From assembly GCA_964016885.1 (NCBI GenBank), contig OZ024759.1, forward strand, positions 34,720,001 to 34,784,000: a DNA stretch of 64,000 nt. Direction: 5' to 3'. This DNA is from Eledone cirrhosa (Eukaryota). Below the pieces are notes generated by a model. That model ran no database searches. It saw only the letters and a list, made by a program, of their open reading frames with translations, and had not been told where the DNA came from. Below are positions 6,181 to 34,424 of this stretch, one piece after another. Position 1 is the stretch's first letter; every line of letters begins with the position of its first letter. Position numbers and translations under genes: made by a program.

Positions 6181-6231
6181 GGCTTCTAAAGGACTAGAAC
6201 TGTTTCATTCGTGAGAAATCATCAGGAAGCC
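6181..6231 (-). ncRNA. Hammerhead ribozyme motif, inverted copy
   Basis: Same core on minus strand with perfect stem I GGCUUC/GAAGCC, but CUUUA instead of CUGUA breaks one stem III pair. Confidence 0.6.
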
Positions 6232-6330
6232 GACTGTCCAAGTAATATGACGGTATTTATACCTTTTCTGGTGGTAGGAGAGGGTGGTCATTGCGAAAGG
6301 TATAAATACCGCCATATTACTTGGACAGTC

Positions 6331-6381
6331 GGCTTCCTGATGATTTCTCACGAATGAAACAGTTCTAGTCCTGTAGAAGTC
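6331..6381 (+). ncRNA. Type I hammerhead ribozyme motif
   Basis: GGCUUC-CUGAUGA-uUUCucacGAAu-GAAACAG-uucuaguc-CUGUA^GAAGUC; intact core, stem I 6 bp (one GU), stem III ACAG/CUGU, predicted cleavage after 6375; stem II weak. Confidence 0.75.
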
Positions 6382-7078
6382 ATTTCTATATTAAAATATT
6401 TATACTCTGCTATGTATTGAGTACCTTACTTACTGTGGTTACCCCCCGATTGAACCTGGGATAAGCATATATATAGGTACATATATATATATGTGTATAT
6501 ATATATATATATATAACACCTTTTCTGCACCTCATGTCATTCTTCTTTGTCTCCACGTTGGACTACAGTTCACATTCCTTATTATTCTCTTCTGTTTTAC
6601 TATTTCTCTCCTTTCTATAGTTTTTTCTCTTCAGGCTAAGTCCTCCTCATTCTCTCCCTTCTTTGTCAGCTGTCACACTTGAGACACTTTTTCATCTATA
6701 TTTGTGTAATTTGCCTAAAGTCATAATTTGTCTCTGTTTTTTTGTGTCCCAATATGCACTGGGACGATTGGTATCAACCTCAACCTACTGAAACCGTAGT
6801 GATTTTCAGATGTTGCCTGAGGAGATGAGACTGTCCGTTTTTTCTTTGTTTTATCCTGTGCACCTCACCCATTGTTTTAAGACGGCCGTCACGTGCGATG
6901 TGTCTGAGGAGGTGTTAGCTGTTATATTATTTTTTTCACAAGTTTAAAGTCTTCGTTCAACAGATACAATGAGAATTAGCTTAGAAAACTGAGATAATGA
7001 AGAAAGTTCAACGTCCATCGTTGAGTGTCGTTGTGTGATGTGATATGATGTAACGAGACGAGATGAGATGAGAGAGAA

Positions 7079-25947: not shown

Positions 25948-26230
25948 GTGTGTAAATATATATTAGTATCATATACAGTTATATTTGTTCCAATGGAACT
26001 CTCCAGAAGACTTATCTCCCGCTTCCCAGTAATTCCGGTCACGTTGTATCTCGTCATGTGGGACGTTAACTCCAGTATTGCCTACAGCGAGAATATTGCC
26101 AATCCAATTTTAGATATAAACATATCAATATGTTTTCCTATATAAATAGAGTAATGACCTTTACTGTGTAGTGCACTGCTCATTGATATACATACACACA
26201 CACACATACATACATACATATATACATACA

Positions 26231-26262
<32 letters not shown>

Positions 26263-27165: not shown

Positions 27166-27569
27166 TGTGTGTATATATATATATATGTGTGTATATATAT
27201 ATATATGTGTGTATATATATATATATGTGTGTATATATATATATATGTGTGTATATATATATATATGTGTGTATATATATATATGTGTGTATATATATAT
27301 ATGTGTGTATATATATATATATGTGTGTATATATATATATATGTGTGTATATATATATATATGTGTGTATATATATATATATATGTGTGTATATATATAT
27401 ATGTGTGTATATATATATATATATGTGTATATATATATATGTGTGTGTATATATATATATGTGTGTGTGTGTGTATGTATATATAACGAAGGAAATGTGG
27501 TAAGGAACCAGCTGGTCTACAACTAACCGTCGAAACGGTTTGAGCTCAGCCGTCGGGGTCCTACTCGTT

Positions 27570-27654
<85 letters not shown>

Positions 27655-28030
27655 TAAAATAACAGATTAAAGTTTAAGCAAAGAATCGCTGCTTTCGCCC
27701 TTAACGGGATCTTCTGAAAATATATTATTATTATATATATATATATATGTGTGTGTGTGTATATATGTATGTGTGTATGTGTGTGTATGTATATCAATGA
27801 GCAGTGCACTACACAGTAAAGGTCATTACTCTATTTATATAGGAAAACATATTGATATGTTTATATCTAAAATTGGATTGGCAATATTCTCGCTGTAGGC
27901 AATACTGGAGTTAACGTCCCACATGACGAGATACAACGTGACCGGAATTACTGGGAAGGGGGAGATAAGTCTTCTGGAGAGTTCCATTGGAACAAATATA
28001 ACTATATGATACTAATATATATTTACACAC
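25948..28030. repeat. ~250-bp near-identical inverted duplication around ~1.6 kb of mostly microsatellite
   Basis: 25948-26200 vs 27781-28030 reverse complement; I see one substitution and a 2-bp indel. Confidence 0.92.
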
Positions 28031-28420
28031 AGGGTATTTTCGGTTATTCCCGGTGTTTCCGTATGTTTCCGGGTATTTCCGGCTGTTTCCGGTCATTTCC
28101 GGCTATTTTCGGTCATTTCCGGGTATTTCCGGTTATTTCCGGTGTTTCCGGGTATTCCCGGCTATTTCCGATTATTTCCGGGTCTTTCCGGCTATTTTCG
28201 GGTATTTCCGGGTGTTTCTGGGTATTTCCGGCTATTCCCAGCTATTTCCGGCTGTTTCCGGGTATTTTCGGTCATTTCCGGGTATTTCAGTATATTTCCG
28301 GTTGTTGCCGGGTATATCCGACTATATCCGACTATTTCCGGCTATATCCGGCTATTTCCGGGTATTTCCGGCTCATCCCGGGTATTTCCGGTTATTTCCG
28401 CGTATTTCCGGGCATTTGCA
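28031..28420. repeat. 10-bp CpG-rich satellite (TATTTCCGGN)n
   Basis: gtatttccgg/ctatttccgg with ~10-bp period. Confidence 0.92.
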
Positions 28421-28430
28421 GGTGTTTTTG

Positions 28431-28712
28431 ACCTTCGCGCATGCGCAGTATGATCCAAACCTCGCGCATACGCAGTAAGGTCCAAACTTCGCACAAGCGC
28501 AATACGGGCCAACCTTAGCGAATGCGCAGTGCTGTCTAACCTTCGCGCATGAGCACTACGGTCCAACCTTCGCGCATGCGCACTACGGTCCGACCTTCGC
28601 GCATGCGCAGAACGGTCCGACCTTCGCGCATGCGCAGAACGGTCCGACCTTAGCGCATGCGCAGTGCTGTCCAACCTTCACGCATGCGCAGTGGGATCCA
28701 ACATTCGCGCAT
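28431..28712. repeat. 27-bp array carrying NRF1-consensus CGCGCATGCGCA, ~10 copies
   Basis: ggtccaaccttcgcgcatgcgcactac; period measured 28561 to 28588. Confidence 0.92.
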
Positions 28713-28744
28713 GGGAGAAAAGACAAGTCGATTTTCTCGAAAAA

Positions 28745-29335
28745 CGACGGAAACTAAACGGAACTAGCTGGAAAATAAACGGAAGATAGACGGATATTCG
28801 ACGGAAAATCGACAGAAAATAGAGGGGAACTAAACGGAATTCGACGGAAACCCGACGGAAAATCGAAGGAAAATCGACGGAAAATAGACGCAACTAGTCG
28901 GAAATAGCCGGACATACCCGGAAATACACGGTAATAACCGAAAATAATCGGAAATACCCGGAAATATCCGGAAACGCCCGGAAATAGCCGGAAATACCCG
29001 AAAATGACCGGAAATAGCCGAAAATACCCGGCAATAGCCGGAAATACCCTGAAACACCCGGGAATATCCGGAAATACCCGGGAATAGCCGGAAATACCCG
29101 GAAATAACCGGAAATACCCGGGAATAGCCGTAAATAACCGGAAATGACCGAAAATACCCGGAAATAGTCGGAAATAGCCGGGAATGACCGGAAATAGTCG
29201 GAAATACCCGGAAATGACCGGAAATAGACGGAAATATCCGGAAACAGCTGGAAATACCCGGAAAACACCGAAAATAACTGGAAATACACGTGCATACCCG
29301 GAAATAGCCGAAAATACCCGGAAATACCCGGAAAA
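28745..29335. repeat. (CGACGGAAAA)n then (CCGGAAATAN)n satellite, inverted relative to 28031-28420
   Basis: Direct inspection. Confidence 0.92.
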
Positions 29336-29449
29336 CACTTAGGTTAGAAGACACTTAGGTTTGAAGACACGACAAAAGTTCGTTGCAATGAATTGTGAAA
29401 CACTTGGACCTGAATCAAACCTGGATGTTTAGCATGGCCACCCAGCTTT

Positions 29450-29620
29450 ATTAATGGTTTCTAATTTAAATACAAGGCCAGAAATTAGGGAGAAAAGACA
29501 AGTCGATTATATTAACACCAGTACATCACTGGTATCTCTTTTGTGGATACCAGTAGTATGAAATATTAGGTTGACAATGGTCGGGTTTGAGCTCAGAAAA
29601 GAAAGGGTTTTAAACAATGC
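29450..29620 (-). mobile_element. Older, diverged tRNA-SINE copy
   Basis: ggtttctaatttaaatacaaggccag...actggtatctc...gggtttgagctcagaa aligns loosely to the 5818 family. Confidence 0.6.
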
Positions 29621-29646
29621 CACAATTACTCCCATAAATTAATAAA

Positions 29647-29829
29647 GTGGATTGGCAGTATCGGTAGAGGGTCTGACGCCATACTTTGCAACAAAGAGTT
29701 ACGGCCGTTTATGGTCTGAGTTCAAATCCCGCCCAGGTTAACTTTACCTTTCATCCTTACGGGGTCGATAAAATAAAGTACCAGTAATACACTGGAATAA
29801 TTGCTGGCCTTGTGTCAAAAGTAGAAACA
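29647..29829 (+). mobile_element. tRNA-SINE with 13-bp TSD
   Basis: Family match; TSD ataaattaataaa at 29634-29646 and 29830-29842. Confidence 0.92.
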
Positions 29830-29889
29830 ATAAATTAATAAACACAATTTCTTGAACGTGGAAGTATAAACAGTTAATAATTTAACGAT

Positions 29890-30461
29890 TAGGAAAATCG
29901 ACGAGAAAACCGACGGAATACCGACGGAAAACCGACGGAAAATAGACGGAAAATCGACGGAAAATATACGGGAACTAAACGGAATTAGCCGGAAAATCGA
30001 CGGAAGATAGATGGGAAATCGACGGAAAATCGACGGAAAATCGACGGAAAAATCGACGGAACTAGTCGGAAATAGCTGGAAATATCCGGAGATAGTCGAA
30101 GATAGCCGGAAATACCCGGAAATACCCGGAAAACACTCAGGTTAGAAGACACTTCTAACGTTAGAAATAGCTGGAAAACCGACGGGAAATCGACGGAAAA
30201 ATCGACGGGAAGTGGACGGAAAATAGCCGGATATAGCCGGATGTAGCCGGAAATACCCGGAAATAGCCGGAAAACACTGGAAATACGGGAAAATAGCCGG
30301 AAATAACCGGAAATACCCGGCAATACACAGGAATCTCCGGAAAACACCGGAAATAACCGGAAATACCGGGGAATACTCGGAAATAGCCGAAAATACCCGG
30401 AGATAACCGAAATACACCGGAAATACCCGGAAGTAGCCGAAAATAGCCGCAAATACCTGGA
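29890..30461. repeat. Second block of (GACGGAAAA)n/(CCGGAAAT)n satellite
   Basis: Same units as 28745-29335. Confidence 0.9.
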
Positions 30462-30827
30462 AAACACTTAGGTTAGAAGACACTTACGTTAGAAGACACT
30501 TAGGTTAGAAGACACTTAGGTTAGAAGACACGTAGGTTAGAAGACACTTAGGTTAGAAGAGACTTAGGTTAGAAGACACTTACGTTCGAAGACACTTACG
30601 TTAGAAGACACTTACGTTTGAAGACACTTACGTTAGAAGACACTTAGGTTAGAAGACACGTAGGTTATAGGTTAGAAGACACTTAGGTTAGAAGACACTT
30701 TCGTTTGAAGACACTTTCGTTTGAAGACACTTAGGTTAGAAGACACTTACGTTTGAAGACACTTAGGTTAGAAGACACTTAGGTTAGAAGACACTTACGT
30801 TAGAAGACACTTACGTTTGAAGACACA
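30462..30827. repeat. 16-bp tandem array CACTTAGGTTAGAAGA, ~22 copies
   Basis: Variants ttagg/ttacg and tta/ttt; short versions at 29335-29370 and ~30133-30165. Confidence 0.95.
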
Positions 30828-31164
30828 ACAAAAGTTCGTTGCAATGAGTTGTGAAACACTTGGACCTGAATGAAACCTGGATGTTGAGCATGTCCACCCA
30901 GCGTTATTAATGGTTTCTAATTTAAATACAAGGCCAGAAATTTGGGAGAAAAGACAAGTTGATTTTCTCGAAAAACGATGGAAAATAAACGGGAACTAAA
31001 CGGAACTAGCCGGAAGATAGACGGAAAACCGACAGAAAATAGACGCGAACTAGACGGAAAATCGACGGAAACCCGACGGAAAATCGACGGAAAATAGACG
31101 GAATTAAACGTAAAATAGACAGGAAATCGACGGCTATTTCCGGGCATTTCCCGGTGTTTCCGAC

Positions 31165-31377
31165 GTTCGCACATGCGCAGTAAGGTCCAAATTTCGCGCA
31201 TGTGTAGTAAGGTCCAAACTTCGCGCATGCGCAATACGGTCCAACCTTAGCGAATGCGCAGTGCTGTCCAACCTTCGCGCATGCGCAGTGCGGTCCAGCC
31301 TTCTCGCATGCGCAGTGGGATCCAACCGTCGCGCAGGCGCACTACGGTCCAACCTTCGCGCATGCGCACTACGGTCA
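31165..31377. repeat. Second 27-bp NRF1-motif array, ~8 copies
   Basis: Same unit as 28431-28712. Confidence 0.9.
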
Positions 31378-32830
<1,453 letters not shown>

Positions 32831-33041
32831 ATAAATAGAATGTTATATTTATAACTCAATTTCTAATTTTTAAATATACACCACCTTTGTGTTCTCGGTG
32901 TAAATCCTGTCGAGATTAATTTACAATTTTATAATTTTAGAGCAGCAAAATATAGTACCAGTCATTTTATGGGTTCAATTTAATCGATCAGCTTCTCCCC
33001 GTCAATCACTTGGCATTTGCCAAACAAAGACACACAAACAG

Positions 33042-33118
<77 letters not shown>

Positions 33119-33746
33119 ACGACAAATTTGAAATAAATTATGTGTTTCCAATAAAAGTTTAAAAAAAGAATTATTGAAAGTAAGAAATATTATTATTTAG
33201 TAATAATATTTTTATTGTTTGTTTTCACTGCATTAACTGCTGAGTGTGACTTATTTTTCTTACTATTTTCTACTCTAAATGGCGGCTGAGACGTCATTGG
33301 ATTATTAGTAAGATTTACTGGATGACGGCGTTTCCTTTTTGCATTATTTTACAAACAGTGGACATGGGCACCTCCCTCTATATACCTGGGATAATGTAAG
33401 GAGCATTGTATTTTTATACATAGTACAATGGTTATCTCTTCTTATATTTACATTTTCATCCCCAATTCTGTATTTTGAAGTCCTTTCATTATTTTAAATA
33501 TTTCTATCATGTCACTCGTTTGATTTATCTCCTCCAAAGTTGTAATTCTAAGTGTTTATCCTTGGTATAGTGAACTAATGTGGATATTTTCAAGTCTTGA
33601 CATTTATAGAATACTGTACTAATTATTTAAATAGTCTTATATTTCCCCCCTAAGATTTATCTCCTCTAAATTTTCTAAGTTTTCAAAATGTATTTGTGTG
33701 TGTGTATATATATATATGTATGTGTGTATTTGTGTTTGTGTGTGTT

Positions 33747-33873
<127 letters not shown>

Positions 33874-34016
33874 ATGCCCAGATCATGCTAGAATTTCAGC
33901 AACGTTTGTTTCCAATTCTTCTTTATTCCTGTTCATTCCATTCCATTGTTATTCTGTTTATTTCAGAATCAAGATGTCTTGGAGTAGCTGACTATCTTCT
34001 ACAATTATTCTCAACC

Positions 34017-34080
34017 ATGGATAGAAAGATACAGGCGGGAGCATTGATTACTTTCCTACTACTAACACTTTCTAAAACAG
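34017..34080 (+). CDS. Probable first coding exon (signal peptide) of a secreted or membrane protein; exon 33967-34080
   Basis: Acceptor ttattctgtttatttcag ends 33966; Kozak-like aaccATGG; MDRKIQAGALITFLLLTLSKT (basic N-region plus hydrophobic core); strong donor CAG|gtatgt in phase 1. Confidence 0.55.
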
Positions 34081-34424
34081 GTATGTATAGAGATATCTCA
34101 CTACTTTTGACACATCTCGTGTGGTTTTCTCTCTTAAACATAAGCTGTGCTGAGTATGTTACGTCAAACCGTCTCTTGGGCGGTTTTTCTATATTTCTTT
34201 GTTTGTTGATTATTATTGGCGATTTATTTGTGAAATGTTTAATAATGGCGGATATATCATTTCTTTAGAAACATGTATATGAAGTATATACATCTCCACC
34301 TGGATCTACACACACACACATATGTGTATATACACCTTCATCTGTATCTACACACATACACATACACAATTATATACATCTACATTTGTATCTAAACACA
34401 CACTCGTACACTCATATCTATCTA

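What the first reader, a model, noticed from the sequence alone, without database searches (positions are those of the whole stretch)
28031..31377. CpG-rich composite satellite built from housekeeping-promoter motifs (ETS-like and NRF1-like arrays)
Seen: in an AT/microsatellite background, ~3.3 kb is dense in CpG and made of dozens of CCGGAAAT units plus ~18 27-bp units, many carrying CGCGCATGCGCA. Known: CCGGAA(G/A)T is the ETS motif and YGCGCAYGCGCR the NRF1/Erect-wing motif; both typify CpG-island promoters and are methylation sensitive. Inference: this could be a tandemly amplified promoter or TF sink. It ends ~2.6 kb upstream of the candidate signal-peptide exon, and the retained CpGs suggest it is unmethylated or very young.
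Basis: partly seen in the sequence, partly recalled or inferred. Interest (0 to 1): 0.75.

Follow-up and report, generated by a model that had tools for sequence, protein, structure and literature searches.

The report
Patchwork minisatellite sharing a Helitron repeat
This CpG-rich stretch is a patchwork of four short tandem repeats and a captured piece of ordinary DNA that recurs, reshuffled, at a few other places in the genome, and one of the repeats also sits inside a transposon family, so it is most likely repeat DNA copied between sites rather than an amplified promoter.

Summary
The sequence is largely as described: CpG o/e 1.55 (0.65 elsewhere), 43 exact CCGGAAAT, 19 27-bp units, only 7 with the full 12-mer. 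About half of the 3.3 kb was missed: 11-bp and 16-bp repeats and a spacer holding SINE-like elements. The spacer core recurs at 6 other loci (94-99% identical), all on small contigs, with the modules reshuffled around a fixed cyclic order and no shared ends. The 27-bp unit is genome-wide (628 candidates) and lies at a fixed place in a defective Helitron family (23 of 30 copies picked by their Rep sequence); the window has no Helitron ends. The ETS reading fails: 1 of 110 units is CCGGAAGT and the core varies as much as its flanks. The NRF1 reading is partly alive: 8 of 19 units keep GCGCATGCGC, the core varies less than its flanks, an NRF1 gene exists, and window units lack the CpG decay seen in Helitron-linked units. 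No transcription-start or binding data could be obtained. Verdict: a dispersed composite minisatellite, likely in an octopod, of a kind known from oysters; incidental NRF1 binding remains possible.

The parts
28032..28417 (-). 10-bp minisatellite (A10, CCGGAAATA plus one variable base), about 39 units, inverted relative to the later A10 arrays
28431..28713 (+). 27-bp minisatellite (C27), 10.5 units, palindromic core equal to the NRF1 consensus; same unit family as the array inside a Helitron family
28713..28743 (+). junction joining the end of the spacer core to the 11-bp repeat; 8 matches genome-wide at 5 loci
28739..28898 (+). 11-bp minisatellite (B11), related in sequence to A10
28899..29334 (+). 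A10 array, about 43 units
29331..29370 (+). 16-bp minisatellite (D16), 2.5 units
29371..29633 (.). captured non-tandem spacer; its first 138 bp (core U) recur at 6 other loci at 94-99% identity; about 29449-29606 is a decayed minus-strand copy of a SINE-like repeat (label recalled)
29647..29829 (+). younger SINE-like insertion with a 13-bp target-site duplication (29634-29646 and 29830-29842); its 5' part is present, cut short, in the C23 and C25 sister loci
29892..30061 (+). B11 array, 15 units
30057..30463 (+). A10 arrays interrupted by one D16-like piece and a short B11 block (30173-30224)
30460..30826 (+). D16 array, 22.5 units; found elsewhere only in sister composites on C20 and C25
30827..30974 (+). 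second copy of spacer core U (94% to the first) ending in the U-to-B11 junction
30972..31133 (+). B11 array
31159..31376 (+). C27 array, 8.1 units, preceded by about two inverted A10 units; runs directly into (AT)n with no terminal repeat or target duplication
32830..33664 (+). neighbour, not part of the satellite: a separate dispersed repeat (736 candidates) with a possible splice donor at 33396
33967..34080 (+). neighbour: single-copy exon-like stretch with acceptor, ATG at 34017, a 21-residue hydrophobic leader and a donor; possibly a 5' exon of the cadherin gene seen from about 39 kb downstream (inferred)

Best explanation
The stretch is a non-coding patchwork of four minisatellites and a SINE-bearing spacer that recurs, reshuffled, at a handful of loci on the small chromosomes, and it was likely assembled by break repair that copied from sister arrays and switched templates, with its motif matches likely incidental. 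Shown: the four units, the spacer and the junctions are shared between loci; the order B11-A10-D16-core-B11 is kept head to tail while start and end points differ at each locus; the SINE-like insertion and its flank travelled together, so the copying unit was genomic sequence; the 27-bp unit belongs to a genome-wide pool that includes a fixed internal array of a defective Helitron family. Inferred: that copying was by template switching at breaks in simple repeats (reinsertion of a small DNA circle would leave the same pattern and cannot be told apart here); that the Helitron captured and spread the 27-bp array rather than inventing it; that the locus has no selected function.
For: Core spacer at 7 loci on C18, C20 (3), C23, C25, C27, 94-99% identical. 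Module adjacency over 19 stretches: D16 to core 9, core to B11 9, B11 to A10 32, A10 to D16 7, A10 to B11 18; flanks differ at every locus, often another minisatellite or (AT)n. U-to-B11 junction 8 times at 5 loci, backwards control 0. No TIR, TSD or Helitron end at the window's borders. C27: 628 candidates; of 28 other fetched places 12 are Helitron-linked (9 with RepHel matches), 10 lie in AT-rich or telomere-like patchworks, 3 stand alone, 2 are A10/B11 composites, 1 has Helitron-like flank on one side only. 23 of 30 Helitron copies chosen by Rep sequence carry C27 (19 of 26 after removing 4 already seen). Helitron hallmarks in that family: 5' TC, 3' hairpin and CTAG, A|T target, PIF1 and Helitron_like_N domains. 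A10 core positions 95/85/86/91% identical against 84-97% for five flanking positions. A neighbouring 32-bp module in sister loci is a tandemised piece of a GIY-YIG-type retroelement, showing the same process on another source.
Against: The C27 core is about half as variable as its flanks in all four groups (window 0.074 vs 0.164; telomere-like 0.065 vs 0.188), which neutral copying does not predict; palindrome self-correction (z -5.6 folding) is only a suggested reason. No source element was found for A10, B11 or D16. Window C27 units differ from Helitron units at two diagnostic positions, so the link is shared ancestry, not direct copying. Junction microhomologies were read by eye at only a few joints. 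This one copy does lie 2.6 kb from a possible 5' exon. Own-genome searches scored only the best 40 candidates, so the small-chromosome bias of A10 rests on 40 of 62.
Confidence: 0.62

Rival explanations
1. The array works as a regulatory element or binding sink: unmethylated NRF1 sites in the 27-bp units (and weak ETS-like sites) recruit factors and affect the downstream gene. This can be true on top of a repeat origin.
For: 8 of 19 units keep the NRF1 consensus; core less variable than flanks; NRF1-family gene on C15; no CpG-transition excess in window units (ratio 0.44 for C27, 0.28 for A10) against 2.33 in Helitron-linked units; human TERRA promoters are NRF1-bound 29-bp tandem repeats (PMC6600276, passages); 2.6 kb from a possible 5' exon.
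Against: ETS core not constrained and canonical site 1 of 110; rare variants do not avoid the NRF1 motif in the window (0.048 vs 0.032); 0 of 20 stretches holding the downstream repeat carry any module; modules recur inside transposons and giant satellite blocks; low methylation is the default for octopus transposons (PMC9476566, passages); one sister C27 array on C20 does show CpG excess (ratio 2.29, but it is an internally duplicated array).
Confidence: 0.14
2. The composite is a damaged piece of an unrecognised DNA transposon with modular, foldback-type ends made of short tandem repeats.
For: A10 minus and A10 plus arrays form an inverted pair around the first C27 array; fixed cyclic order of modules; Drosophila Foldback ends are built of short tandem units (recalled).
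Against: No shared left or right end or target duplication across 19 stretches; no transposase-like frame recognised beside the composites; most sisters have A10 in one orientation only.
Confidence: 0.1
3. The patchwork was written by a Penelope-type reverse transcriptase jumping between RNA templates, as other notes of this scan propose for hammerhead repeats in this genome.
For: Penelope-like elements are common near these loci and one module in sister loci derives from such an element; cyclic permutation fits a circular template.
Against: No hammerhead or other Rfam family at gathering score; no strand-specific A-to-G excess (A10: A>G 5.5%, G>A 7.3%, T>C 9.1%); no fixed start points.
Confidence: 0.09
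4. The arrangement is an assembly artefact.
Against: Sister loci differ by 1-6% and in module order, units are individually diverged, and the SINE-like insertion has a clean target duplication.
Confidence: 0.03

Closest known systems
Helitron/Helentron-carried satellite-like arrays of Crassostrea gigas (Cg_HINE; PMC7492417 abstract and outline; PMC8268682 passages)
   Same: One monomer occurs inside Helitron-type elements, standing alone, and with element sequence on one side only; short arrays dispersed over the genome.
   Different: Here the carrier is a canonical Helitron with remains of RepHel, the monomer is 27 bp, and the window locus is a four-module patchwork with no element ends.
Shuffled or composite satellite loci from transposon remnants (review PMC12628747, passages)
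   Same: Truncated, tandemised and re-oriented pieces of different repeats and elements at one locus; the same arrays inside and outside elements.
   Different: The review's composite monomers are single long units; here short arrays are chained in a recurring cyclic order at a few loci on small chromosomes.
Human TERRA promoter 61-29-37 repeats (PMC6600276, passages)
   Same: CpG-rich composite of short tandem repeats, one with NRF1 sites; some C27 loci here abut degenerate TTAGGG arrays (6 of 28).
   Different: 0 of 6 telomere-capped contig ends carry C27, A10 or B11 in 9-22 kb of subtelomere; the window locus has no telomeric repeats; promoter activity untested.
NRF1/ETS CpG-island housekeeping promoters (NRF1 consensus from PMC10810270, abstract; ETS consensus recalled)
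   Same: Exact NRF1 consensus in 8 of 19 units; CpG o/e 1.55.
   Different: Multi-copy tandem DNA, GC 45.5%, canonical ETS site nearly absent, no TSS evidence.
C. elegans Helitron-derived 10-bp periodic A/T clusters (preprint 10.64898/2026.08.08.743475, abstract and passages)
   Same: Minisatellites linked to Helitrons; A-tracts at 10- and 11-bp period in A10 and B11.
   Different: A10 and B11 are GC-richer, were not found in the Helitron, and curvature or insulation was not tested.

Membership tests
NRF1/ETS CpG-island promoter | High CpG o/e with GC above about 50% (threshold recalled) | tested here: inconclusive
   o/e 1.55 but GC 45.5% overall; C27 blocks 59-60%
NRF1/ETS CpG-island promoter | NRF1 consensus GCGCATGCGC | tested here: met
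   8 of 19 units
NRF1/ETS CpG-island promoter | Canonical ETS site CCGGAAGT (recalled), core constrained | tested here: not met
   1 of 110 units; GGAA intact in 67 of 110; core no better kept than flanks
NRF1/ETS CpG-island promoter | Substitutions avoid the NRF1 motif | tested here: inconclusive
   Yes for all variants (p 0.016-0.018), no for rare variants in the window (p 0.78); units are not independent
NRF1/ETS CpG-island promoter | Overlaps a TSS in open, unmethylated chromatin and is bound | not testable with these tools
   No RNA holder listed, no chromatin data
Helitron (the window locus as an element) | 5' TC, 3' hairpin plus CTRR, A|T target, RepHel remains | tested here: not met
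   No terminus match in window 22-40 kb and no RepHel match in the window
Helitron (the family carrying C27 elsewhere) | 5' TC, 3' hairpin plus CTAG, A|T target, Rep and PIF1 domains | tested here: met
Transposon-associated dispersed satellite-like arrays (oyster type) | Same monomer element-bound, standalone and one-sided | tested here: met
   12 element-linked, 3 standalone, 1 one-sided among 28 places
MITE or Foldback with internal tandem repeats | Shared terminal inverted repeats and target-site duplication | tested here: not met
TERRA promoter-type subtelomeric repeats | Next to terminal telomere arrays | tested here: not met
   0 of 6 telomere-capped ends among 36 contig ends examined
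Retrozyme | Hammerhead ribozyme in the unit | tested here: not met
   No Rfam match at gathering score in 27500-34400

The most novel reading that the evidence does not exclude
The 27-bp array is a portable NRF1-binding cassette: a Helitron carried it to hundreds of sites, where its CpGs decay, while patchwork copies on small chromosomes keep their CpGs and cores, and this copy has become an NRF1-driven control element upstream of a cadherin gene.
Probability: 0.1. Interest if true: 0.65.

Novelty: new member of a known kind. Interest (0 to 1): 0.3.

Why it matters
If the best reading holds, it is an ordinary but clear example of how short repeats, transposon pieces and captured DNA are chained and moved between chromosomes, with a built-in control: the same 27-bp unit decays at CpGs in Helitron copies on the giant chromosomes and does not in the window. 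If the novel case held, it would be a transposon-spread library of binding sites for a methylation-sensitive factor in a cephalopod-like animal, directly testable by one ChIP experiment.

Tried and rejected
Coding reading of the 27-bp unit (9 codons): variable positions show no codon periodicity and units carry indels; rejected. Downstream repeat 32830-33664 as part of the same element: 0 of 20 stretches holding it carry any module; rejected. Helitron as the native source of C27: the one relative found with an uninterrupted Rep region has no C27 upstream, but its 5' end is disrupted; n = 1, direction open. A10, B11, D16 as parts of the Helitron or of the GIY-YIG element: not found in them. TERRA-type location: 0 of 6 capped ends. 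RNA-editing signature: none. Rfam: only sub-threshold matches, mostly to microsatellites. Cadherin exons inside the window: none found with a small home-made profile. Expression: no RNA holder listed; the two listed runs laid no contig on the exon; neither is evidence. The script stopped at the D16 step; D16 was tabulated. Scan notes: none near this place, one unrelated sequence hit. Ten paper searches listed no paper whose title or abstract start describes this repeat; no repeat library (Repbase, Dfam) was available, so it may be catalogued there. No supplements were read; the satellite-methylation result of PMC9476566 rests on a supplementary figure not seen.

Full report
Setting. The window is G000:C20:34720001-34784000 of a 3.0-Gb animal assembly; 61% of it is tandem repeat. 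C2H2 finger arrays, TTAGGG telomeres, SINE-like repeats that I recall as octopus-type and unchecked notes of this scan point to an octopod; that label is inferred.

Observation. The region 28031-31377 has 268 CpG, o/e 1.55, against 0.65 outside; CCGGAAAT occurs 43 times inside and never outside, far above shuffles. There are 19 27-bp units, 7 with the full 12-mer and 8 with the 10-bp core. The description covers about half of the stretch. In order: A10 (10 bp, minus), C27, B11 (11 bp), A10, D16 (16 bp), a 521-bp spacer, B11, A10, D16 (22.5 units), a second copy of the spacer core, B11, C27. The spacer holds a decayed SINE-like piece and a younger one with a 13-bp target duplication. Another array in the window (40420-44400) is as CpG-dense.

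Sister loci. The 138-bp spacer core recurs at six other loci on C18, C20 (two), C23, C25 and C27 at 94-99% identity. They contain the same modules in other lengths and combinations. Over 19 stretches the adjacencies follow a cycle: D16 to core 9, core to B11 9, B11 to A10 32, A10 to D16 7, with A10 to B11 18; the flanks differ at every locus and are often another minisatellite or (AT)n. The core-to-B11 junction has 8 matches at 5 loci in the whole genome. The C23 and C25 copies carry the 5' part of the same SINE-like insertion with its flank and stop inside it, so genomic sequence was copied after the insertion. A10 matches of 150 bp or more (40 of 62 candidates scored), B11 (27 of 27) and close D16 matches (10 of 10) fall on contigs of 22-45 Mb or unplaced ones; the four giant contigs, 54% of the assembly, give only A10 matches under 80 bp. 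The window's ends show no inverted terminal repeat, target duplication or Helitron terminus.

The 27-bp unit. It has 628 candidates, 40 scored. Of 28 other places fetched, 12 are Helitron-linked (9 with RepHel matches in the stretch held), 10 lie in AT-rich patchworks (6 of them beside degenerate TTAGGG arrays), 3 stand alone, 2 are A10/B11 composites and 1 (L061) has Helitron-like flank on one side with window-type units. The family has canonical ends: 5' TC, 3' hairpin and CTAG, between A and T, and PIF1 and Helitron_like_N domains. Choosing copies by Rep sequence instead (262 candidates), 23 of 30 carry C27 within the 1.5 kb held, 19 of 26 after removing 4 already seen. In 29 of 30 the Rep region breaks at one point; the single relative with an uninterrupted Rep has no C27 upstream, though its 5' end is disrupted. 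So a defective subfamily probably captured and spread the array; direction is not settled. Helitron units differ from window units at two positions.

Motif tests. A10, 110 window units: GGAA intact in 67, CCGGAART in 43, CCGGAAGT in 1; core positions are 95, 85, 86 and 91% identical, five flanking positions 84-97%, the tenth three-way variable. Substitutions do not avoid the ETS core. C27: the core equals the NRF1 consensus (PMC10810270, abstract) and is less variable than its flanks in every group (window 0.074 vs 0.164, p 0.018; telomere-like 0.065 vs 0.188; Helitron 0.099 vs 0.159, p 0.16). With rare variants only the window shows no protection (0.048 vs 0.032) and other groups little (p 0.02-0.24). 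Tandem units share variants, so these p-values overstate. The core is a palindrome and the array folds strongly; self-templated correction is a possible neutral cause, untested. An NRF1-family gene lies on C15; ETS genes were not searched.

Methylation. CpG transitions exceed other C/G transitions 2.33-fold in Helitron-linked units (351 of 2761 vs 176 of 3228; ratio above 1 in 10 of 12 loci), 1.65-fold in AT-rich or telomere-like patchworks, and not in the window (C27 5 of 137 vs 13 of 158; A10 7 of 215 vs 30 of 256); one sister array on C20 shows 2.29. This fits little germline methylation or recent copying at the window. In Octopus bimaculoides transposons are lowly methylated, satellites somewhat more (PMC9476566, passages), so retained CpG is weak evidence of function.

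Neighbouring gene. The exon-like stretch 33967-34080 is single-copy and has a splice acceptor, so it need not be the first exon. Between it and the satellite are 1.45 kb of (AT)n and a separate repeat with 736 candidates; 0 of 20 stretches fetched for that repeat carry any module. Cadherin exons start about 39 kb downstream on the same strand; the link is inferred.

Mechanism. Shown: shared modules, junctions and captured spacer; cyclic order with free start points; membership of C27 in a Helitron-borne pool; tandemisation of a retroelement piece in sister loci. Inferred: copying by break repair with template switches between arrays, mostly among small chromosomes; a reinserted DNA circle would look the same. 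Confidence 0.62. Rivals: regulatory or sink role 0.14, unknown modular transposon 0.10, reverse-transcriptase jumping 0.09 (a lead from scan notes; no hammerhead; no A-to-G bias), artefact 0.03.

Comparison. It works like the Helitron/Helentron-associated arrays of the oyster, which occur element-bound, one-sided and standalone (PMC7492417 abstract; PMC8268682 passages), and like the shuffled loci reviewed in PMC12628747 (passages). The window locus is not itself a Helitron, MITE or retrozyme by the tests run. The human TERRA promoter (PMC6600276, passages) is the nearest functional analogue for NRF1 sites in short tandem repeats, but 0 of 6 telomere-capped ends among 36 examined carry the modules. 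The 10-11 bp A-tract phasing recalls nematode periodic clusters (preprint, abstract and passages); untested.

Verdict. A real, low-copy composite minisatellite of a known kind; ten paper searches listed no description of this family, but no repeat library was available. Interest 0.3. The boldest open reading, a Helitron-spread NRF1 cassette co-opted upstream of a cadherin gene, has probability about 0.1.

Noticed in passing
window 32830-33664; G000 C15, C18, C19, C24, C25, C26: Separate dispersed repeat, 736 candidates, best 40 all on small contigs, in 7.6-kb tandem units on C24 28.47-28.50 Mb; has a YY1-like motif (recalled) and a possible splice donor at 33396; no long frame found beside it. 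A more plausible promoter or first exon for the downstream gene than the satellite.
   Followed up: partly
L184-L187 (G000:C20:34793434 onward): Cadherin-repeat exons on the plus strand from about 9 kb beyond the window end; the window's signal-peptide-like exon may belong to this gene.
   Followed up: partly
L071, L119-L121 (C3 150.93-150.97 Mb); L068, L115-L118 (C8 30.89-30.93 Mb); C13, C14: Interstitial degenerate TTAGGG arrays over 34 kb and a 32-bp telomere-like satellite over 40 kb, abutting C27/A10/AT-rich patchworks with frequent inversions.
   Followed up: partly
L072, L132-L141, L152-L181: Defective Helitron family, 262 candidates, 39 of the best 40 on the four giant contigs; Rep region interrupted at one shared point in 29 of 30 copies; carries an inverted copy of its own 3' end internally.
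   Followed up: yes
window 40420-44400: TTCG/TTCC simple-repeat array with CpG density equal to the finding (o/e 2.11).
   Followed up: partly
window 25948-26248: Inverted duplicate (95.7%) of 27734-28030, the left flank of the satellite; similar local inverted duplications occur near 6190-6390 and in L023.
   Followed up: partly
L023:7729-8062 (C20 34.543 Mb): A sister composite 200 kb away also holds an inverted, 96-99% identical copy of window 32830-33190, so the two loci exchanged flanking DNA as well.
   Followed up: partly
L192, L026, L193: A 32-bp minisatellite whose monomer is single-copy in the 3' part of a GIY-YIG-type (Penelope-like) element and is tandemised next to B11 arrays.
   Followed up: partly
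L216-L263: 6 of 36 contig ends examined end in TTAGGG arrays, some over 17 kb; the three subtelomeres seen at C6, C14 and C19 are repeat-poor.
   Followed up: no
window 27650-27720: Fragment of a palindromic element seen whole in L082:660-1480.
   Followed up: no
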